A stretch of 64,000 bases of DNA from Staphylococcus phage LY01, in sequence record OR836606.1; one strand, given 5' to 3'. Below, one piece after another: positions 7,298 through 20,680 of this stretch. A program made the translations under genes and the position numbers. Below the pieces are notes generated by a model. That model did no database searches, was not told where the DNA came from, and was given only the letters and a program-made list of their open reading frames with translations. How positions within the stretch are numbered: the first letter of the stretch is position 1; the number at the start of each line of letters is the position of its first letter.

Positions 7298-7888
7298 TTA
7301 TGAAAAATTATCTTTTACAAATAAATTATTTAACTCTTTAAATAATTTATCAATATTACTTTCTTTATGTGAAGTTAATAAAACTTCTTTTAAAGATTCT
7401 TTAAATTGATTTAATGATAACTGTTTCCATTCCCCTTTAATATTTATATAAGCTGAATGATTTCCAGTATTATACCTTTTATATTCTTCATAGAATGAAT
7501 TAGCTGCCTTTTTATAAGTTAATATATTAATCATAGGAAGAGAATCAATTTTATCCATAAAGAAATAATATAAAGGCGTAACTTCATTTTCTGTATATAT
7601 CAAGTGATCAATAGTATTTACTAATTCTTTTATAGTTATAACTTCACTTGTCTCTTTTGTATTTAAAGATATATCTTCTAAGTTTAAATAATCAATTTCC
7701 ACTTCTTCATCTTCCTTTTCAATTGACATTAGCGTTTCTTTACTATAATGATAGTTAAAACCAGAGTTATGGGATGTGTTATTTTTATTAATTTCAAATT
7801 GATCAAATCTTTTCTTTAAATATTCATTACCCTTTAAATATTCATTAGCCTTTAAATATTCATTATAATCAGAATAAATTTTAAACAC
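7298..7888 (-). CDS. hypothetical protein (196 aa)
   Basis: ORF track. Confidence 0.5.
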   Translation of the reverse strand: MFKIYSDYNEYLKANEYLKGNEYLKKRFDQFEINKNNTSHNSGFNYHYSKETLMSIEKEDEEVEIDYLNLEDISLNTKETSEVITIKELVNTIDHLIYTENEVTPLYYFFMDKIDSLPMINILTYKKAANSFYEEYKRYNTGNHSAYINIKGEWKQLSLNQFKESLKEVLLTSHKESNIDKLFKELNNLFVKDNFS

Positions 7889-7942
7889 AACCTTTAAATG
7901 TAGGAGTAACGATCAAAATAATAATCATTACTCCAATTTAAT

Positions 7943-8392
7943 TTATTTACTTTCTTCAATAATTTCTTTAACTAAATTATTTATTTCTTGAGGTTTTAAA
8001 TCATTGATATCATCTACATTTTCATATTTTTCCATTAAGAATTCTAATTGATCTTCATTTAAATCCATAATACCTAGTAATTCATCTTCTTCAGGTTCAT
8101 CAAATGTCATACTAACATTTAATGGGCTGAAGTAAGCATTAAGTACTTTAGTATTATTATTTTGAGTTCTTTTTTGTATATCTTTTGTATTGATCTTAAA
8201 TGGATTACCTGTATATAATTCAACTAATAAACGTTTACGCATATCTGGATTATTTGAGTACATATTCGTTAATTGATTGATTGCTTTGATAGAGCCACCG
8301 ATCATCATATTAGTTGTTTCCATTTCACCGATGCGGAGCGGATTGTTGTTAATTCTTGACAAATATTTCTTGGACATGTGTATTAGCTTCAT
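7943..8392 (-). CDS. hypothetical protein (149 aa); possibly the downstream segment of a gene interrupted by the 4-copy repeat array
   Basis: ATG at 8390-8392 lies inside hairpin H0 of repeat copy E1 and has no Shine-Dalgarno; an in-frame TAG sits in the conserved GATATAGTCT box just upstream. Confidence 0.45.
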   Translation of the reverse strand: MKLIHMSKKYLSRINNNPLRIGEMETTNMMIGGSIKAINQLTNMYSNNPDMRKRLLVELYTGNPFKINTKDIQKRTQNNNTKVLNAYFSPLNVSMTFDEPEEDELLGIMDLNEDQLEFLMEKYENVDDINDLKPQEINNLVKEIIEESK

Positions 8393-8523
8393 GCATTTTG
8401 CATAAAGATTAGACTATATCATTACCATTTAAGGTAGAATATATTTAGTCGTTGAACAAGCCTTACCGACTTGATGCTGATTTAATTAATAAATTATTCC
8501 AGCAATTAATATTACTTTTTTAT
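8391..8523 (+). repeat. structured intervening repeat element, copy E1 (first of 4 tandem copies)
   Basis: boxes as read on + strand: palindrome H0 (atgcattttgcat) - AGACTATATC - hairpin H1 - ATATATTTAGTCGTTGAAC - hairpin H2 (CAAG..CTTG) - GATGCTGAT - TTCCAGCAATTAATATT. Confidence 0.8.
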
Positions 8524-8588
8524 ATTATTCTTTCGAATAATACCGGACACAAGAAATTTATCCGGAGTTCTAGTAGGTCGTTTATCTT

Positions 8589-8720
8589 ATATTAATTTTA
8601 ATACAAGACAGACTATATCATACTCATTATTATGAGTGAATATATTTAGTCGTTGAACAATTTTCATTGATGCTGATTATTCTTAATAGAACTTTCCAGC
8701 AATTAATATTCTTTTACTGA
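8589..8720 (+). repeat. structured intervening repeat element, copy E2
   Basis: TTTATCTTAT - H0 (tattaattttaata) - CAGACTATATC - H1 (ACTCAT/ATGAGT) - ATATATTTAGTCGTTGAAC - H2 (CAAT/ATTG) - GATGCTGAT - TTCCAGCAATTAATATT. Confidence 0.8.
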
Positions 8721-8786
8721 GACATCTACATATCCCACTGTAATTGTTAAAGTCTAATGATTTTGCACTGATTTTCTTTACGTTAA

Positions 8787-8921
8787 TCTATATAATTTAT
8801 TATATAGAACAGACTATATCTTATACTTTTGAAGCATTAATATATTTAGTCGTTGAACAGTATTTAACTGATGCTAATCAATTTTATTAAATCGTCCTAG
8901 CAATTAATATTATAATTATAA
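8787..8921 (+). repeat. structured intervening repeat element, copy E3
   Basis: TTTACGTTAATCTATA - H0 - CAGACTATATC - H1 - ATATATTTAGTCGTTGAAC - H2 (CAGT/ACTG) - GATGCTAAT ... CCTAGCAATTAATATT; H3 shows a compensatory change (TGCTA/TAGCA instead of TGCTG/CAGCA). Confidence 0.8.
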
Positions 8922-8963
8922 ATTATATTTCTATAATAAACGGCAAATTTTTACCTGATGGCG

Positions 8964-9097
8964 TTATTCATATAATACATTTATTATATGACAGACTATA
9001 TCATAATCTATTAATATAATAGATAATCTTTATTTAGTCGTTGAACACTTAATTGTGATGCTGATTATTCTGATAAGAATTTTCCAGCAATTAAAAG
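8964..9097 (+). repeat. structured intervening repeat element, copy E4 (overlaps the 3' end of ORF 9065..9655)
   Basis: H0 (catataata/tattatatg) - CAGACTATATC - H1 (ATCTATTA/TAATAGAT) - TTTATTTAGTCGTTGAAC - H2 (CAC/GTG) - GATGCTGAT - TTCCAGCAATTAAAAG; the last 11 codons of ORF 9065..9655 are read from the conserved 3' box. Confidence 0.75.
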
Positions 9098-9655
9098 ATT
9101 TTCGAATGAATCTTTGCAGATACATAGGAGACATCTAATTTGATTCTCATGTTTTAATTTAAGGTGATACAAATCTCCAACCATAAATGTTCTATTACTT
9201 ACGTCTAATCTATTTTTCTTAATATTATATTTATTAAATACGTATCTTAATTGTTCTGAATCAATATTACCAAAAAATGGTGCTTGGTGTAGCACAATAC
9301 CTTCTTTAATAATTTCATCAATAGCTTCTTTAGTTTCAGATAAATCTAATTGATTAAATAATTTAACATAATTGTCATATGAAATTTTATCTACATCTTT
9401 AATATATCCTAATAGATATTCTTTCTGTTGATTAATATCATCTAATTTACTTATACGATGTCTTATTACATTTGACACATGATTTAACTCTAATTCAATT
9501 AAAGCTGATGGATTACCACGGTTAATGATACCCATATTATTATGAATTAAATCTACTCGTTTACTAATTGGTGTTTTAGTAGAATCTTTAGTGAAATCTT
9601 CTCCATCGAACTCTGTGATCATTGGCATTTGATCATCAGGTACAATTTCAGCCAC
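9065..9655 (-). CDS. hypothetical protein (196 aa); C-terminus encoded by repeat copy E4
   Basis: GTG start with AAAGG SD; C-terminal ...LLIAGKFLSE is the reverse complement of the conserved TTCCAGCAATTAA box. Confidence 0.5.
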   Translation of the reverse strand: MAEIVPDDQMPMITEFDGEDFTKDSTKTPISKRVDLIHNNMGIINRGNPSALIELELNHVSNVIRHRISKLDDINQQKEYLLGYIKDVDKISYDNYVKLFNQLDLSETKEAIDEIIKEGIVLHQAPFFGNIDSEQLRYVFNKYNIKKNRLDVSNRTFMVGDLYHLKLKHENQIRCLLCICKDSFENLLIAGKFLSE

Positions 9656-9725
9656 AACGCCTTTGCCGCCATCGAGTCTTCAGCAAAGATCGCTAATCTT
9701 TGCCCGTTCTCTTATGAACTGCTCT
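9656..9725 (-). promoter_or_regulatory. GC-rich structured 5' leader upstream of ORF 9065..9655
   Basis: gcaaagat-tagcg-atctttgc 8-bp hairpin inside a locally GC-rich segment (ggcggcaaaggcg) about 20-50 nt upstream of the GTG start. Confidence 0.3.
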
Positions 9726-9790
9726 AGATTTTCTCTAGAAGACGAGACTATATCTTCACCCTAAAATTTAGGAGAACTATGTTTCCATTT
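9725..9790 (+). repeat. partial or degenerate copy of the intervening element (E5: H0-box1-H1 only)
   Basis: tctagattttctctaga palindrome - AGACGAGACTATATC - CCTAAAATTTAGG hairpin; the GTTGAAC, GATGCTGAT and TTCCAGCAATT boxes are absent. Confidence 0.45.
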
Positions 9791-9824
9791 AATAGAATTA
9801 CATTAAGCTAATATCACTTAAAAA

Positions 9825-10937
9825 CTAACCGCTTGGCTGTACTCTACTCATATAGTAATTTTCTTCATTATAATATATACCATTTTGTATATACATTATA
9901 TTTTCACCATACTTATCGATAGTCGTTGAACTAATTAAATTATTGTCTAATATTTCATTCATTAATTTTCTTAATGTATCTAAATATATAGTTCCTTTTA
10001 TTCTTATCATATTATAATTTTTATTTTTTATAATTAAATTTTTAGTATCATCTATTAATACACATCTATTATAATGATCCCAACCTTTTTTAACTTTACT
10101 GTTTTTCCCACCCCAAGGTCGAAAATGTTGATTTCCATCAACTTCAATTATTAAATTTAATTCAGGGATATAAAAATCATATTTATAATACTTAGATTTA
10201 GATACATTTAGATTATTGTTTATTTTAAAATCATATTCATATTTTAGATTATTTGTTTTTAATATTTTAATAATTTCTCTTTCTGCTTTAGAAAAACTTC
10301 TTTCTTTATAACAAAAAGGACATCTTATTCCACCATTAACAAAATTTTTCCTCGTTGTTGTACTATATACTTTTCCACATTTTTTATGTTTTAAAGTTAT
10401 AGGAATTGTCTCTTTTACATATTCACCAAACATCTCATATTCACCATTAGAAACTTTTTCAATATCTTTTTTACAAGATTCCGTTGTCACTTCATAACCT
10501 GAGCATCGTTTACATATTGTTTTTACTCCATCTTTTCTTTTTCTTTTTAAAAGAGTTGTAGGAGATATATTTACAATATGTCCACATTTATGTTTAAATT
10601 TCATAGACTTACTGAATCCTTTATAATCTTCTTTATTAAATGTATATTCTCCTGGTAAAAATTTATTTAGTTTGTATTCAAGATTTTCTGGTGTTTGATT
10701 TTTAGTATAGAAACAATTGGGACAATAACCATGTTCATTATCTCTTTTAAATGTATGAGGTTTGGTTTTAAATTCTAAACCACAATCTAAATGTTTAATT
10801 AATGTAGATGTATCTCCGTTAATGTATTCTCCAAGAAGTACATAATTTTTATTATTTAAAATATTTTCAAAAATTCTTTTATTTTCTTCTCTTTTCATTT
10901 TAATCATTCCTTTCAAAAAGAAATGAATATTAGACAA
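9825..10937 (-). CDS. multi-zinc-finger protein with a C-terminal Vsr/DUF559-like (PD-(D/E)xK) endonuclease domain; possible homing-type nuclease
   Basis: repeated CxxC pairs (CPNCFY, CKRCSGY, CPFCYKE) and C-terminal DFYIPELNLIIEVDGNQHF resembling the (I/F)VDGxxH nuclease motif. Confidence 0.45.
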   Translation of the reverse strand: MSNIHFFLKGMIKMKREENKRIFENILNNKNYVLLGEYINGDTSTLIKHLDCGLEFKTKPHTFKRDNEHGYCPNCFYTKNQTPENLEYKLNKFLPGEYTFNKEDYKGFSKSMKFKHKCGHIVNISPTTLLKRKRKDGVKTICKRCSGYEVTTESCKKDIEKVSNGEYEMFGEYVKETIPITLKHKKCGKVYSTTTRKNFVNGGIRCPFCYKERSFSKAEREIIKILKTNNLKYEYDFKINNNLNVSKSKYYKYDFYIPELNLIIEVDGNQHFRPWGGKNSKVKKGWDHYNRCVLIDDTKNLIIKNKNYNMIRIKGTIYLDTLRKLMNEILDNNLISSTTIDKYGENIMYIQNGIYYNEENYYMSRVQPSG

Positions 10938-11075
10938 TTTTAATTAGCTGCTGATTAACCATTGCAAAAATACTTAGGTTTTTCAACCATATATTATCTC
11001 ATTTATTATCTTCAACTTTTCAGTAACCATAGAGGTTAAATGAGCTTTAGGCAGTCCCAGCAATTAATAGTTTTT
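10938..11075 (+). repeat. degenerate copy of the intervening element (E6)
   Basis: retains GCTGCTGATTAACC ... CCCAGCAATTAATAG (H3 arms) with about 100 nt inserted between them; the other boxes are degenerate. Confidence 0.35.
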
Positions 11076-11102
11076 TAATAGCATGTTACCATACTATGAG
11101 AC

Positions 11103-12221
11103 CTAGTTTGATCTCGTTGTGATTTTCGATCCATGAACTAAAGGTTTCTTTTCTAAAACTTTAACTCTGAAAATAATCTTATCAAATTGATTGTTATCGT
11201 AAACTAATTTAGCGTTATCATCAATATATCCTTTGAATTTATTATGGATTCTAATTAAGTCATTACTAAATTTCTTTTTACGTACAATATCATCTGTAAC
11301 AGTTACAAATGTTTTATAGAAGTGTCTCAATTCTTTAATATATTTAACAAATTGCTCTGAATATTTTTGATTTTCTAATTTTTCAATATCTTCATTATTA
11401 AGAACATCAATATCAATAACTTTACCGTGAACTTTATAAGCATTATCGTCTTCTAATGTTTTAGTAAGCATTTCATTTTTGAATTTATGAATAATCTCAT
11501 CATAATTCAATCTACGAGTTGCACACAATATTCCATTTTGAACTTCTTCTCCTACATCTGGAAATGATTTATATTCTTCTTCATTACCATATAAATTTAA
11601 TGGAATATCGTTTGTATTAATAGTAATATTGATTACATTCACAAAATAACTTGACATTTTCTCTGCCAATGATTCTGATACTACAATTCCGTCTTCATTC
11701 GTCATACCTTTGAACGGTAAGAATACGGAAGTTGCATTAGCTCCATATTGAAAGTTATTATCTTCATCATAGTTCTGGTCTTTAAATAATACAGTTTCTT
11801 TACTAACCGTATCTCCAACTTTCAATTTATCAATTTCTTCATTATTATATTTATTTCCAAACTTCTCTGCTAAATGGTTAGCTTCTTCTCTAATAATTAC
11901 ATCATATTCATCATTATCTTTGTACTTAATTAAATAATATTTAACATACTTATTTTTTTCAAACTTATAAATAACTTCAAAATCTCTATCAGCTTTCTTA
12001 TATCCAGTTGAATATTTACCCACTTGATTTTCAAAACCAGTCTGAATTAAAGGCGGTTCAGCACCAGTTAATTGAATACATTGACCGATATGAGACGTGA
12101 ACATTTGAGATCTGTTACCATTAGTTCTATTAACATTAGGCATTAATAGAGGTTCTGATAAAAACTCATGACTTCGATTAGCTTCAATTTCTACCATTCT
12201 TTGTGTCTTCTCTTTTGTCAT
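11103..12221 (-). CDS. hypothetical protein (372 aa)
   Basis: long ORF; no recognisable motif. Confidence 0.55.
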   Translation of the reverse strand: MTKEKTQRMVEIEANRSHEFLSEPLLMPNVNRTNGNRSQMFTSHIGQCIQLTGAEPPLIQTGFENQVGKYSTGYKKADRDFEVIYKFEKNKYVKYYLIKYKDNDEYDVIIREEANHLAEKFGNKYNNEEIDKLKVGDTVSKETVLFKDQNYDEDNNFQYGANATSVFLPFKGMTNEDGIVVSESLAEKMSSYFVNVINITINTNDIPLNLYGNEEEYKSFPDVGEEVQNGILCATRRLNYDEIIHKFKNEMLTKTLEDDNAYKVHGKVIDIDVLNNEDIEKLENQKYSEQFVKYIKELRHFYKTFVTVTDDIVRKKKFSNDLIRIHNKFKGYIDDNAKLVYDNNQFDKIIFRVKVLEKKPLVHGSKITTRSN

Positions 12222-18325: not shown

Positions 18326-18634
18326 TTATTCTTCTTGCCCGTAATCAGGTCTATTGTCTTTAAGTAGATCGGATTCGATGCCAGCACCAAGTAAATAATA
18401 GAAAGTAGTATTTAATGTAGTTTTATCAGAAAGATCATCCGGCAAATCTTCTAAACGAGAATAACCATACATTGAAATATTTTTATTTAATTCTTGCTTA
18501 GCATTCATAGAGTCTGAACGTGGACCCATTAATTCCCTTAAAATATCTTGAGCTCCGATAGCTTTTAATGCTGAAGCTTCCATATTGGAAACGCTTGCAA
18601 CTTTATCAGAACCTGTCAATTGTGATGTCTTCAT
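18326..18634 (-). CDS. hypothetical protein (102 aa); possibly the downstream segment of a gene interrupted by repeat copies E7 and E8
   Basis: ATG has no SD (acaagatcaATG); the reading frame stays open upstream into copy E7 until the in-frame TAG of the GATATAGTCT box. Confidence 0.4.
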   Translation of the reverse strand: MKTSQLTGSDKVASVSNMEASALKAIGAQDILRELMGPRSDSMNAKQELNKNISMYGYSRLEDLPDDLSDKTTLNTTFYYLLGAGIESDLLKDNRPDYGQEE

Positions 18635-18685
18635 TGATCTTGTAGACGCATCTAAGCTATACGCATTTTTCTTTGAAAGTAATTG

Positions 18686-18810
18686 TTGTACATTTAATAA
18701 TATACAATTAGACTATATTTTCATCCTATAAAGGAGATTTCTATTTAGTCGTTGAACAGTTATTTTAATCTGATGCTGATTATCTTAATAAAGACTTTCC
18801 AGCAATTAAG
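18686..18810 (+). repeat. structured intervening repeat element, copy E7
   Basis: H0 (ttgta...tacaa) - TTAGACTATATT - H1 (TCCT/AGGA) - CTATTTAGTCGTTGAAC - H2 (CAG/CTG) - GATGCTGAT - TTCCAGCAATTAAG. Confidence 0.75.
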
Positions 18811-18874
18811 AAAGATTTTTCTTTCACATTTCTGTAAAAGGAGGCTACAACAATTAACCTCTTAACGTGTAAAT

Positions 18875-19000
18875 CATTTATGTTAATCTATATAAAATTC
18901 ATATAGATCAGACTATATCTTCTTATTCATATATTTAGTCGTTGAACATTAATTTTAATGATGCTGATTAAGATAATAATCTATTCCAGCAATTAATATG
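18875..19000 (+). repeat. structured intervening repeat element, copy E8
   Basis: ATTTATGTTAATCTATA - H0 (atctatat/atatagat) - CAGACTATATC - ATATATTTAGTCGTTGAAC - H2 (CATTAA/TTAATG) - GATGCTGAT - TTCCAGCAATTAATATG; ends 18 nt after the stop of ORF 19019..20680. Confidence 0.8.
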
Positions 19001-19018
19001 ATTTTAGTTGAACAAAAA

Positions 19019-20680
19019 TTATCCAACTGGAACTTTATATCTAGTTCTCAATGGATCTTCTTTATTTCCATCATGTCTATAATAAACGAATTCATTCATA
19101 GGCACATCAAGTTTGTTTAAAGCTTCTTCAACTTCTTTAAATCCGGCCTCAGATTTATTAGGTAATACTTCAATGTAGAAGTTTTCATCACTATTAACAA
19201 ATCGCTTAATATATCTCATGAATTCTTCATCGTTCATTTCATCAAAGAATACTTTATATTTATTCATATTAGATTGATCTTTATCTAATGAAGAAATAAC
19301 ATCTAATATTTTATTTTGAATTTCTTGACGTTTCTTTTTATTATCATCAACAGCTTCATTTAAAATTGATTCTGGCTCTAATACAGTTTCATTTAAAGTC
19401 TTCTCATTGAACTTCATAAAGAATCTTTCAATTATTTCCATATTACTTGAAATAGCTTTTTGGAAATTAAATTCAGCAGGTATTTCTTTAACTGAGAATT
19501 TAAATATACCTTTATCTTCTTCATTTTCTTGATCATATCCAAATTGATATGCACAATATTTATTAACATCATCCATACTTTTAAAAACTATAGGGCTATC
19601 TAATTTAAAATCAGCTAATACATATCCTTGACCGTTATAAGAAACAGGAAATAACATTATATCATCTTTATTAGGATTTACATAAGTTACTAATTCAATC
19701 GATCTAATACCTAATTTCTTTTCTAATATTTTAAAGTATAATAGAGATAAAACGTTTGGATTAATCCTACCGTGATCTTCCGACATTCTAAAATCATCAG
19801 ATAAAAATACAGATGGAGTCACTGTAGCATATACTTCTTTTCTATCTTCGGTGAATTTAGGTTTATTATCTTTATTTTTATTATATAAGAAATTAAATAC
19901 TTCAATTTCATTTTCTAATTGATATTCATATATAACATCTTCTAGTCTTTTCTCTAATTCATAATCTCCATAATCTTTATAAAGATTAGACTCATTATAA
20001 TACATTACTTCTAGATTATTAAATAAGGGTGAATTGAGCACATTATGTTCAGTGAATATTTTATTCCATATAATATCATTTTTACTATCTAAAAATAATG
20101 TGTTACCCATTGATTCTAGAACTTTAACTAAAGTTCTTAATTTAGCATCATTATAAAAATTATACTTATCTTTATTAGATGAAACGTATTCTTCTGAATC
20201 TAAATCAAAATCTTCTTTACCTTTTCTCTTAGTTGATTCTTTACTTAAGAATCTAACTTTAACAACTTCAGATAAATTATCAACATTATTTAATACAGTT
20301 TTAATACTTCCTGTATCGTTCATTACAATAGGGTTGCCACCTTTATCGTCTCCAGCGTAATCAATTAGTAAATCTTCTTCTCTTCCTTTTTGATTCTGTA
20401 ATACGATATACTTAATTTGAGTATTGTCTTTAGGATACTTAATTAAGTATATATCAAACCAACAGGATTTGCCTTTTTTATCATATTCTTGAGAATCATT
20501 ATAATCTAATAAGAAATCCATTTCGGATTCTGTAACTAATATTTCAGCTTCATTGATTAAATCAATAGGAGATTTAATTACCGAAATATTTTCAGAATTA
20601 CATTCCGGACAAGATGTAATATTTTCATTATATTCTTGTACTAAGCTACATGAATTACATCTAATATATTTCTTTTCCAA
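19019..20680 (-). CDS. hypothetical protein with N-terminal zinc ribbon (553 aa)
   Basis: CNSC...CPEC zinc ribbon at the N-terminus; function unknown. Confidence 0.55.
   Translation of the reverse strand: MEKKYIRCNSCSLVQEYNENITSCPECNSENISVIKSPIDLINEAEILVTESEMDFLLDYNDSQEYDKKGKSCWFDIYLIKYPKDNTQIKYIVLQNQKGREEDLLIDYAGDDKGGNPIVMNDTGSIKTVLNNVDNLSEVVKVRFLSKESTKRKGKEDFDLDSEEYVSSNKDKYNFYNDAKLRTLVKVLESMGNTLFLDSKNDIIWNKIFTEHNVLNSPLFNNLEVMYYNESNLYKDYGDYELEKRLEDVIYEYQLENEIEVFNFLYNKNKDNKPKFTEDRKEVYATVTPSVFLSDDFRMSEDHGRINPNVLSLLYFKILEKKLGIRSIELVTYVNPNKDDIMLFPVSYNGQGYVLADFKLDSPIVFKSMDDVNKYCAYQFGYDQENEEDKGIFKFSVKEIPAEFNFQKAISSNMEIIERFFMKFNEKTLNETVLEPESILNEAVDDNKKKRQEIQNKILDVISSLDKDQSNMNKYKVFFDEMNDEEFMRYIKRFVNSDENFYIEVLPNKSEAGFKEVEEALNKLDVPMNEFVYYRHDGNKEDPLRTRYKVPVG

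What the first reader, a model, noticed from the sequence alone, without database searches (positions are those of the whole stretch)
7943..9655. Tandem array of four elements between two ORFs; the upstream ORF ends inside an element and the downstream ORF starts without an RBS
Seen in sequence: ORF 9065..9655 runs into copy E4, and its last residues (LLIAGKFLSE*) are translated from the conserved TTCCAGCAATTAA box. ORF 7943..8392 begins at an ATG embedded in hairpin H0 of copy E1 with no SD (ctttatgcaaaatgcATG), immediately after an in-frame TAG inside the conserved GATATAGTCT box. Other genes in the window carry clear AGGAG-type SDs. By analogy with the gyrB junctions, these may be two halves of one gene separated by roughly 700 nt of element array, or the array has truncated one gene and displaced the next. 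Inference.
Basis: partly seen in the sequence, partly recalled or inferred. Interest (0 to 1): 0.7.

Follow-up and report, generated by a model that had tools for sequence, protein, structure and literature searches.

The report
Four tiny self-splicing introns in one gene
The four repeated elements are four very small group I (self-splicing) introns packed into 72 bases of coding sequence of a Staphylococcus jumbo-phage RNA polymerase gene; the two "ORFs" are exons of that one gene, an extreme example of something already reported for related phages.

Summary
All features lie on the minus strand of a Staphylococcus jumbo phage about 91-93% identical to S6, Madawaska and MarsHill. ORFs 11103-12221, 9065-9655 and 7943-8392 are pieces of one gene, the C-terminal half of the non-virion RNA polymerase beta subunit, which is uninterrupted in phages S6 and SA1. 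The 700-nt "array" is four separate ORF-less group I introns (185, 153, 177 and 181/184 nt). They are separated by three micro-exons of 9, 44 and 19 nt that encode the 24 residues missing from both ORFs. A fifth, 1438-nt intron carrying an HNH homing endonuclease lies upstream. Evidence: sub-threshold but significant Rfam RF00028 hits; P/Q/R/S boxes; strong covariation in P3-P8; a U·G 5' splice site (three of four) and a terminal G (all). The spliced product is 713 aa, 97% identical to S6, and aligns without gaps to the solved AR9 subunit. Only the first intron's 5' splice site is ambiguous (one Asn more or less). Intron-split versions of this gene are already annotated in related phages, so this is a new member of a known kind.

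The parts
11111..12221 (-). Exon 1 of the nvRNAP beta C-terminal-half gene (ATG at 12221, TAGGAG upstream)
   Evidence: Spliced alignment to the intronless SA1 and S6 genes. The exon ends ...ACGAGAU, whose U pairs with the G of the guide sequence GUCUC. The SD is visible.
9673..11110 (-). Intron I0, 1438 nt, group I-like, carrying HNH homing-endonuclease ORF 10937-9825 in its P6 region
   Evidence: The 5' end reads GAGAU|CAAACUAGGUCUC. The P and Q boxes are TTAATTGCTGGG and TAATCAGCAGC. The S box GATATAGTC lies at 9746-9754 and the intron ends ...ACUCG|. The ORF matches PHROG 559 'HNH endonuclease', E = 1.1e-48. Model R1 gives a weak hit at 9708-9799, E = 0.002.
9143..9672 (-). Exon 2 (AUGGCGGCAAAGG...CAUGAG[AAU]); its end is 9143 if AAU is exonic, or 9146 if not
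   Evidence: The ORF-finder 'start' GTG at 9655 is an internal Val codon of ...GKGVVAEIVPDDQ.
8962..9142 (-). Intron E4, 181 nt (184 nt if it starts at 9145): P1, P2 with a GCAA loop, P3-P9, terminal G at 8962
   Evidence: Rfam RF00028 scores 45.0 bits, E = 3.8e-10, full-length model match. Helices. The 5' splice site is ambiguous (see report).
8953..8961 (-). Exon 3, a 9-nt micro-exon CCAUCAGGU (Pro-Ser-Gly)
   Evidence: Identical to the contiguous exon sequence CATGAACCATCAGGT of AH12 and Machias. It completes the protein alignment.
8776..8952 (-). Intron E3, 177 nt: 5' GGU|AAAAAUUUGCC, P2 with a GAAA loop, P4 with a compensatory G-C to A-U change, 3' ...GUAAAG|
   Evidence: Rfam RF00028 scores 16.2 bits, E = 0.16. 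AH12 and Machias carry an intron at the same site. Helices.
8732..8775 (-). Exon 4, a 44-nt micro-exon (K-I-SAKSLDFNNYSG-I codons)
   Evidence: A 23-nt exact match to the SA1 gene.
8579..8731 (-). Intron E2, 153 nt, no P2: 5' GGGAU|AUGUAGAUGUCUC, 3' ...AAACG|
   Evidence: Rfam RF00028 scores 26.5 bits, E = 1.3e-4. Lengths; helices.
8560..8578 (-). Exon 5, a 19-nt micro-exon ACCUACUAGAACUCCGGAU (completes the Ile codon begun in exon 4, then P-T-R-T-P-D)
8375..8559 (-). Intron E1, 185 nt: P1 CCGGAU/GUCCGG, P2 with a GAAA loop, P9 hairpin containing the spurious ATG 8392, 3' ...ACAUG|; an 8-bp P10 forms between AUUUCUUG and the 3'-exon CAAGAAAU
   Evidence: Rfam RF00028 scores 34.4 bits, E = 5.9e-7. 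Machias and AH12 carry an intron at the same site.
7943..8374 (-). Exon 6 (UCCAAGAAAUAUUUG... to the stop), containing the GEME motif region

Best explanation
The region is one gene, the C-terminal half of the beta subunit of the phage's non-virion multisubunit RNA polymerase. It is transcribed from the minus strand and interrupted by five group I introns. Four of them (E4, E3, E2, E1; 181/184, 177, 153 and 185 nt) have no ORF. They sit within 72 nt of coding sequence in the most conserved part of beta, between the KLKHE and GEME motifs, and leave micro-exons of 9, 44 and 19 nt. Each intron is predicted to fold on its own into the group I core: P1 formed with its own 5' exon, P3-P9, and the P3/P7 pseudoknot. 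Each is predicted to excise itself by the two-step guanosine-initiated transesterification, cutting after the U of a U·G pair and ligating after its terminal G. That would give an mRNA for a continuous 713- or 714-aa protein. Shown here: the sequence anatomy, the covariation-supported structure, the splice-site signatures, and restoration of an intact conserved reading frame. Inferred, not shown: that splicing actually occurs, its order, whether it needs no protein, and the exact 5' splice site of E4. These ORF-less introns probably spread during co-infection. The likely route is recombination or gene conversion that drags flanking exon sequence along, possibly helped in trans by the many homing endonucleases of these phages (inference).
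For: 1. One gene. SA1 and S6 encode the protein without interruption. The joined exons are 93.2% (nt) and 97.2% (aa) identical to S6 with no gap. A single phmmer stretch covers residues 15-665 against AR9 nvRNAP chain 7S00_C, E = 2.5e-141, running ungapped through the micro-exon region. Pfam RNA_pol_Rpb2_6 is detected only in the joined product, not in the separate ORFs.

2. Group I identity. Rfam RF00028 matches all four elements full-length on the minus strand, at 45.0, 34.4, 26.5 and 16.2 bits. RNAalifold on a plain MAFFT alignment recovers P4, P6 and P7. On an alignment of 24 family cores anchored only by the conserved boxes, the P3/P4/P5/P6/P7/P8 structure has 93.2% of cells paired, against 30-53% when partners are slid. 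Seventeen of 32 pairs show changes on both sides, and the covariation score is 0.315 against 0.105 in shuffles, 0/500. Twenty-four distinct independent relatives from metagenomic viral contigs, mostly jumbo-phage-sized (>200 kb), show 95.3% paired cells and 18 of 20 pairs with changes on both sides.

3. Splice sites. E1, E2, E3 and I0 have a U·G pair followed by 2-5 further base pairs with a guide sequence 8-11 nt downstream. All five introns end in G. E1 has an 8-bp P10.

4. Presence/absence polymorphism. Across nine related phages the gene carries 0 to 6 introns, and insertion sites b, d and e are shared between phages. GenBank already annotates the gene as joined from 3, 4 and 6 pieces in Madawaska, MarsHill and Machias, as described by Korn et al..
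Against: No RNA or protein data exist for this phage. All four Rfam scores fall below the curated gathering score of 50 bits, and scans of the whole window and of a 3.3-kb stretch found nothing. E3 alone is not significant (E = 0.16). E4 lacks a clean U·G splice site at the position the protein alignment requires. A U at -1 is obtained only if an extra AAU (Asn) codon, absent from S6, SA1, Madawaska, AH12 and AR9, is counted as exon, and P1 then needs a bulged A. P1 of E3 has only about 5 bp, mostly A-U. The covariation alignments were anchored or fitted with the structure in mind.
Confidence: 0.9

Rival explanations
1. The introns, or at least E4, are decayed and no longer splice. On this reading the gene is inactivated or produces a truncated beta fragment in this genome, which would be a defective variant or an assembly of one.
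For: E4's 5' splice site is non-canonical under the protein-conserving reading. Rfam scores are sub-threshold. The source genome is not in the phage collection; the best matches are about 91-93% identical, so its viability is unknown.
Against: All core helices of all four introns are intact, with compensatory changes. All micro-exons stay in frame with only one conservative substitution (L to I) relative to S6. Both candidate E4 junctions are in frame. Cultured relatives carry 2-6 introns of the same family in this essential gene.
Confidence: 0.06
2. The gene is genuinely split into separately translated polypeptides that assemble after translation, as jumbo-phage RNAP subunits are naturally split into N- and C-terminal genes. 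The elements would then be intergenic repeats.
For: Jumbo-phage beta and beta' subunits are encoded by several genes (Korn et al.). The ORF finder does give two ORFs with start codons.
Against: Twenty-four conserved residues, PSGKISAKSLDFNNYSGIPTRTPD, would be lost, yet they are encoded in frame-consistent pieces of 9, 44 and 19 nt between the elements. There is no RBS before ATG 8392. The ORF tails (ENQIRCLLCICKDSFENLLIAGKFLSE, MKLIHM) have no counterpart in homologues. The elements have ribozyme structure.
Confidence: 0.02
3. The elements are non-catalytic repeats (MITE/REP-like) or inteins.
For: They form a tandem array of similar ~190-nt units with hairpins.
Against: There are in-frame stop codons in every frame, which excludes inteins. 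There are no terminal inverted repeats or target-site duplications. The group I covariance-model hits and the pseudoknotted core with covariation are not expected of MITEs.
Confidence: 0.01

Closest known systems
Intron-interrupted nvRNAP beta-C genes of Staphylococcus jumbo phages Madawaska, MarsHill and Machias (Korn et al., bioRxiv 10.1101/2020.12.14.422802; GenBank CDS joins)
   Same: The same gene and the same intron family. Sites b and d of the window are also occupied in Machias and AH12. Micro-exons also occur there: 20 nt in AH12 and Machias, 23 nt in MarsHill.
   Different: The paper inferred 'introns' only from protein alignment and did not classify or fold them. The window has introns at two sites (a = E4, c = E2) that are unoccupied in all nine relatives examined. 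It has the tightest packing found among those nine relatives: four introns in 72 nt of coding sequence, with a 9-nt exon.
Staphylococcus phage Twort orf142, one gene with three self-splicing group I introns and exon skipping (Landthaler & Shub 1999; recalled from my own knowledge, cited indirectly results)
   Same: Several ORF-less group I introns lie close together in one phage protein-coding gene of a Staphylococcus phage.
   Different: The Twort ribozymes are about 250 nt (my own knowledge) and were shown experimentally to splice. Here the introns are 153-185 nt, there are five per gene, and they are untested.
Group I introns in RNA polymerase genes of Bacillus jumbo phages AR9/PBS1 (Lavysh et al. 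2016, cited; the paper was not readable here) and in nucleus-forming jumbo phages (review PMC12908238)
   Same: Mobile group I introns, some with homing endonucleases, target conserved sites of jumbo-phage multisubunit RNAP genes.
   Different: Intron positions and numbers differ. The solved AR9 chain corresponds to the spliced product.
Classical phage group I introns with P/Q/R/S boxes: T4 td/nrdB/sunY (recalled from my own knowledge, not searched here) and the SPbeta/phi3T family of Bacillus phages; Rfam RF00028
   Same: The same conserved core sequences and helices. There are short blastn matches of the P-box region to phi3T/SPbeta-type phages. The R-box 14-mer is found in more than 120 viral contigs.
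   Different: The introns here are much smaller. There is no nucleotide-level similarity outside the core boxes, and Rfam scores fall below the gathering threshold.
Azoarcus pre-tRNA-Ile intron (about 205 nt), commonly cited as the smallest self-splicing group I intron (my own knowledge; I could not confirm the statement in the library)
   Same: A minimal group I architecture without peripheral domains.
   Different: E2 is 153 nt and lacks P2. Family members in gyrB are 156 and 171 nt and lack P8. These are in mRNA, not tRNA, and their activity is unknown.

Membership tests
Group I intron (Rfam RF00028 Intron_gpI) | Match to the family covariance model at or above the curated gathering score (50 bits) | tested here: inconclusive
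   There were no hits when the whole window or 3.3 kb was scanned. When only 8370-9150 was scanned, full-length matches appeared on the minus strand: E4 45.0 bits (E = 3.8e-10), E1 34.4 (5.9e-7), E2 26.5 (1.3e-4), E3 16.2 (0.16). All are below 50 bits.
Group I intron | Conserved core helices P3, P4, P5, P6, P7 and P8, including the P3/P7 pseudoknot, supported by covariation | tested here: met
   In one search, 93.2% of cells are paired against 30-53% when partners are slid, 17 of 32 pairs changed on both sides, and 0/500 shuffles reach the observed score. P3 has 4 of 6, P6 has 3 of 4 and P8 has 6 of 6 pairs with compensatory changes. The independent metagenomic set gives 18 of 20 pairs. RNAalifold finds P4, P6 and P7 unaided.
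Group I intron | Conserved P, Q, R and S sequence elements in the correct order | tested here: met
   UUAAUUGCUGG, AAUCAGCAUC, GUUCAACGACUAAAU and GAUAUAGUCU are present in all four, in that order. The R 14-mer occurs in more than 120 viral contigs.
Group I intron | 5' splice site after a U that forms a U·G wobble with an internal guide sequence (P1) | tested here: inconclusive
   Met for E1 (CCGGAU/GUCCGG), E2 (GGGAU/GUCUC), E3 (GGU/GCC, extended by A-U pairs) and I0 (GAGAU/GUCUC). It is also met in 8 further junctions of relatives. For E4 it is met only if AAU is exonic, which adds an Asn and requires a bulged A. Otherwise position -1 is a G.
Group I intron | Terminal guanosine (omega-G) at the 3' splice site | tested here: met
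   The intron ends are E4 ...AUAACG|, E3 ...GUAAAG|, E2 ...AAACG|, E1 ...ACAUG| and I0 ...ACUCG|. These positions are exactly those that restore the reading frame.
Group I intron | Guanosine-binding G-C pair in P7 | tested here: met
   P7 GACUA/UAGUC, with its first pair G-C, is invariant in 23 of 23 distinct sequences. This is a sequence feature only; binding was not tested.
Group I intron | Guanosine-dependent self-splicing with exon ligation | not testable with these tools
   This needs in vitro transcription and GTP-labelling, or RT-PCR from infected cells.
Mobile (homing-endonuclease-encoding) group I intron | An intron-encoded homing endonuclease ORF in a peripheral loop | tested here: not met
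   E1-E4 are 153-185 nt and have stop codons in all frames, so they are ORF-less. Only the upstream intron I0 carries an HNH endonuclease ORF (PHROG 559, E = 1.1e-48).
Intein | An in-frame insertion translated together with the host protein | tested here: not met
   Every frame of each element contains stop codons.
Naturally split jumbo-phage RNAP subunit genes (separate polypeptides) | Each piece has its own translation start signals, and homologues are split at the same place | tested here: not met
   There is no RBS before ATG 8392. Micro-exons of 9-44 nt cannot be genes. Homologues are continuous across this region.

The most novel reading that the evidence does not exclude
The array may be the densest packing of self-splicing ribozymes described in a protein-coding gene: four ribozymes within 72 nt of coding sequence, with a 9-nt exon whose bases appear shared out between the P10 of the upstream intron (CAUC) and the P1 of the downstream intron (GGU). 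It is built from a family of natural group I introns of 153-185 nt. That is smaller than the ~205-nt Azoarcus intron usually cited as the minimum. Members of the family lack P2 (E2) or lack P8 altogether (the gyrB introns, which are conserved in the cultured phages Madawaska and MarsHill). If these RNAs self-splice, they would redefine the minimal natural group I core. They would also give a system for studying how neighbouring, nearly identical ribozyme cores avoid mis-pairing and exon skipping.
Probability: 0.3. Interest if true: 0.65.

Novelty: new member of a known kind. Interest (0 to 1): 0.4.

Why it matters
For annotation, three "hypothetical" ORFs, none of which hits any Pfam family on its own, collapse into one essential RNA polymerase subunit. 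Two apparent start codons and two ORF tails turn out to be intron sequence. Standard pipelines miss this: Rfam at default settings reports nothing in the window.

For biology, the case shows how far selfish introns can saturate the most conserved segment of an essential phage gene. Five insertion sites lie within about 120 nt across the family, four of them occupied at once here.

For RNA biochemistry, the family offers unusually small natural group I cores and a 9-nt exon flanked by two ribozymes. It could serve as a test bed for the minimal ribozyme and for ordered or cooperative splicing.

It is not a new kind of element. Multi-intron versions of this very gene are already annotated in related phages.

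Tried and rejected
- Rfam at gathering threshold on the whole window, and at E <= 10 on 7900-11200, found no group I hit. Only the 781-nt scan did.
- Pfam on the individual ORFs found nothing relevant.
- blastn-short of the SA1 gene against the region was too noisy for the micro-exons. I replaced it with my own spliced-alignment dynamic programme plus manual adjustment by the U|...G| rule. The programme placed junctions a few nt off and missed the 9-nt exon.
- I searched viral contigs for the E4 5' end (CAAATTAGATGTCTC) to find an orthologue with an unambiguous exon context. All 27 hits were chance matches with no intron boxes.
- Literature searches for 'smallest group I intron' returned nothing usable. 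The AR9 genome paper could not be read.
I did not pursue it, because the core is pseudoknotted.
- Model R1 found no further family members in the window beyond the ten used to build it, apart from a weak hit in I0.
- Considered and rejected: intein, MITE/REP repeat, separately translated split subunits, and one gene truncated with the next displaced.
Full report
**What is in the sequence**

The window comes from a Staphylococcus jumbo phage of the S6/Madawaska/MarsHill/PALS_2/DC4 group. The best matches are 91-93% identical and no record is closer. These phages are AR9-like (Korn et al.). Every gene in the region of the finding is on the minus strand.

The repeat is real. There are four copies spaced 188-201 nt apart. 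Each carries, on the minus strand, the boxes UUAAUUGCUGG, AAUCAGCAUC, GUUCAACGACUAAAU and GAUAUAGUCU. The 14-mer of the third box, allowing up to 2 mismatches, occurs 12 times in the window against 1.2 expected, and 0 of 100 shuffles reach 12. Ten of the 12 matches are exact and all ten are on the minus strand.
- The upstream ORF stops inside the first box of copy E4.
- The downstream ATG lies in a hairpin of copy E1. It follows an in-frame TAG in GAUAUAGUC and has no Shine-Dalgarno sequence.
- The true gene start at 12221 does have TAGGAG upstream.

**One gene**

In phage vB_StaM_SA1 a single 2136-nt gene annotated "RNA polymerase beta subunit" covers the sequences of three window ORFs: 11103-12221, 9065-9655 and 7943-8392. 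Phage S6 likewise has an uninterrupted 2142-nt gene. In Madawaska, MarsHill and Machias, GenBank annotates the same gene ("non-viral RNA polymerase beta subunit, C-terminal") as joined from 3, 4 and 6 pieces.

Neither window ORF contains the 24 residues PSGKLSAKSLDFNNYSGIPTRTPD that link them in the homologues. A three-frame translation of the array shows these residues encoded between the elements. CCAUCAGGU lies between E4 and E3. A 44-nt piece lies between E3 and E2. A 19-nt piece lies between E2 and E1.

I combined my own spliced alignment with the rule that the 5' exon ends in U and the intron ends in G. The resulting map, in minus-strand coordinates, is:

| Feature | Coordinates | Length |
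|---|---|---|
| Exon 1 | 12221-11111 | 1111 nt |
| Intron I0 | 11110-9673 | 1438 nt |
| Exon 2 | 9672-9143 (or -9146) | 530 (527) nt |
| Intron E4 | 9142 (9145)-8962 | 181 (184) nt |
| Exon 3 | 8961-8953 | 9 nt |
| Intron E3 | 8952-8776 | 177 nt |
| Exon 4 | 8775-8732 | 44 nt |
| Intron E2 | 8731-8579 | 153 nt |
| Exon 5 | 8578-8560 | 19 nt |
| Intron E1 | 8559-8375 | 185 nt |
| Exon 6 | 8374-7943 | 432 nt |

The joined exons encode 713 aa, 97.2% identical to S6 with no gap. The product matches the solved AR9 non-virion RNAP chain 7S00_C in one stretch, residues 15-665, E = 2.5e-141. That alignment runs ungapped through "lklkhepsgkisaksldfnnysgiptrtpdskkylsrinnnplrigemet". Pfam RNA_pol_Rpb2_6 is found in the joined product but in none of the fragments.

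**What the elements are**

The four boxes are the classical P, Q, R and S elements of group I introns (established knowledge). Rfam found nothing in the whole window or in a 3.3-kb stretch at E <= 10. With only 8370-9150 submitted, RF00028 (Group I catalytic intron) matched all four elements full-length on the minus strand. The scores were 45.0 bits (E = 3.8e-10), 34.4 (5.9e-7), 26.5 (1.3e-4) and 16.2 (0.16), all below the 50-bit gathering score.

Because these scores are sub-threshold, I tested the structure directly. I collected 24 distinct family cores: ten from the window and the rest from the same gene in Madawaska, MarsHill, Machias, AH12 and PB50.
- RNAalifold on a plain MAFFT alignment recovered P4, P6 and P7 by itself.
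- I then built an alignment anchored only by the invariant boxes, padding the loops with N. On it the full core (P3, P4, P5, P6, P7, P8, including the P3/P7 pseudoknot) has 93.2% of cells paired, against 30-53% when partners are slid by 1-3 columns.
- In that alignment 17 of 32 pairs changed on both sides, and the covariation score is 0.315 against 0.105 in shuffles (0/500).
- P3 alone occurs as GAAUAU/AUAUUC, AAUCUUU/AAAGAUU, UCAUAU/AUAUGA, UAAUAU/AUAUUA and other variants.
- A covariance model built from the family found 35 further matches (24 distinct) in metagenomic viral contigs fetched only through the R-box 14-mer. Most are on contigs of 220-400 kb and they are often clustered.
- In those independent sequences 95.3% of cells are paired and 18 of 20 pairs have compensatory changes. 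One caveat applies: that alignment is fitted to the model.

**Splice sites**

- E1: CCGGAU|AAAUUUCUUGU-GUCCGG, a 6-bp P1 with U·G. The first bases of the 3' exon, CAAGAAAU, are perfectly complementary to AUUUCUUG just 5' of the guide sequence, giving an 8-bp P10. The intron ends ...ACAUG|.
- E2: GGGAU|AUGUAGAU-GUCUC. It ends ...AAACG| and has no P2.
- E3: GGU|AAAAAUUU-GCC. It ends ...GUAAAG|. Its P4 carries a G-C to A-U compensatory change.
- I0: GAGAU|CAAACUAG-GUCUC. It ends ...ACUCG|.

Eight further junctions in relatives follow the same U|...G| pattern.

E4 is the exception. The protein alignment to S6, SA1, Madawaska, AH12 and AR9 requires ...CAUGAG|...|CCAUCAGG. That gives G at -1 and a 184-nt intron. 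By homology with I0 and the AH12 and MarsHill introns, which all begin U|CAAAYU.., and with a U·G pair to GUCUC, the site would be GAGAAU|CAAAUUAG. That gives a 181-nt intron, an extra Asn (HENPSGK) and a bulged A in P1. Both readings are in frame. I rate the U-ending site at about 55-60%. Only cDNA or peptide data can settle it.

**Comparative picture**

Across nine relatives the gene carries 0 introns (S6, SA1, and by coverage PALS_2 and DC4), 2 (Madawaska), 3 (MarsHill, PB50), 5 (Machias, per its six-piece GenBank join) or 6 (AH12). Within about 120 nt there are five insertion sites:
- a: HE|PSG
- b: G|K
- c: within the Ile codon of SG-I-PT (GGGAU|A, after its second base)
- d: D|S
- e: within the Ile codon of R-I-GEME (AGAAU|C, after its second base)

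The window occupies a, b, c and d at once. Sites a and c are empty in all nine relatives. Sites b and d are occupied in Machias and AH12 by diverged orthologues.

Exon sequence next to the introns differs more from S6 than the gene average does: 78%, 86% and 89% identity in the three micro-exons, against 93% overall. Exon 3 is identical to the AH12/Machias allele. Both facts fit co-conversion of flanking exon sequence during intron acquisition (inference).

I0 carries an HNH homing endonuclease (PHROG 559, E = 1.1e-48). It sits 5 nt from the site where Madawaska, MarsHill and Machias have a different, ORF-less intron.

**Mechanism (inferred)**

Each intron folds co-transcriptionally. It uses its own guide sequence to select its 5' exon, is attacked by free guanosine after the U, and ligates the exons after its terminal G.

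The 9-nt exon 3 appears fully used. CAUC can pair with GAUG of E4 (P10) and GGU pairs with GCC of E3 (P1).

The four cores share identical P4 and P7 strands but have different P3, P5, P6, P8 and P9 helices. That may help each ribozyme fold with its own partners and limit exon skipping.

**Known or new**

Group I introns in phage genes, and specifically in jumbo-phage RNAP genes, are well known. Korn et al. reported intron-disrupted RNAP, gyrB and other genes in the MarsHill-like phages from protein alignments. The finding is therefore a new member of a known kind.

Three things go beyond the literature I could read: the demonstration that these are group I ribozymes with a covariation-supported core, their very small size, and the extreme packing with a 9-nt exon.

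**Verdict**

- Confidence is 0.9 that this is a five-intron group I-interrupted nvRNAP beta-C gene.
- Interest is 0.4.

Noticed in passing
window 49102-50516 (-): A group I core of the same family (50374-50516) is followed directly by a 402-aa TnpB-type ORF (50310-49102) with Pfam OrfB_IS605, Cas12f1-like TNB and HTH_OrfB_IS605 domains. It lies just downstream of a 1529-aa ORF. The layout resembles an IStron, a group I intron fused to an IS605-type element.
   Followed up: partly
window 32204-32374 (-) and 32966-33121 (-): There are two introns of the family in gyrB, 171 and 156 nt. One splits the Toprim motif DAD|DDG and the other splits FKG|LGE. Both have no P8 hairpin, with only about 7 nt between P3' and J8/7. 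The 156-nt one is 95-96% identical in the cultured phages Madawaska and MarsHill, whereas AH12, Machias and PB50 have a version 21 nt longer at the same site.
   Followed up: partly
window 18669-19003 (-): A second tandem pair of family introns is separated by a micro-exon of about 18 nt (AUUUACACGUUAAGAGGU). The pair lies between ORFs 19019-20680 and 18326-18634, which have no Pfam hit and are presumably two exons of one gene. The upstream copy (18872-19003) also lacks P8.
   Followed up: partly
window 28006-28147 (-): A family intron follows ORF 28168-28530, which has NUMOD4 and HNH_3 domains and ends ...NLCWVDFQPL. A staphylococcal-nuclease-like ORF (27368-27799) lies downstream. A homing-endonuclease-like gene may itself be interrupted by an intron.
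   Followed up: no
window 9673-11110 (-): The HEG-containing intron I0 is inserted at AGAU|AUGG, 5 nt upstream of the site (UAUGGU|GG) where Madawaska, MarsHill and Machias carry an unrelated ORF-less intron. The two adjacent sites lie in the conserved R-Y-G-G-K-G motif. I0's R/P7 region differs from the mini-intron family.
   Followed up: partly
whole window; 8370-9150: Rfam detection of these AT-rich mini-introns depends on how much sequence is submitted. There were no hits for 64 kb or for 3.3 kb, but there were four hits for 781 nt. Standard annotation would miss all eleven introns found in this window.
   Followed up: yes
L019 7133-8663 (IMG/VR contig 3300035283_000157); also L046, L047, L055, L060, L081: Metagenomic viral contigs, mostly jumbo-phage-sized (>200 kb), carry clusters of related mini group I introns. 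L019 has three in tandem (7801-7961, 8107-8247, 8394-8536) just downstream of an RNAP beta' exon with the NADFDGD motif, next to HNH-like ORFs. Tandem mini-intron arrays in RNAP genes therefore recur beyond the Staphylococcus phages.
   Followed up: partly
window 8953-8961, 8732-8775, 8560-8578 vs L007: Identity of the micro-exons to intronless S6 is 78-89%, against 93% for the whole gene. The substitutions cluster at splice junctions (GGA to GGU, CCAGAU to CCGGAU), where they create the U at -1 and the P1 pairing. This looks like a co-conversion or adaptation footprint.
   Followed up: partly
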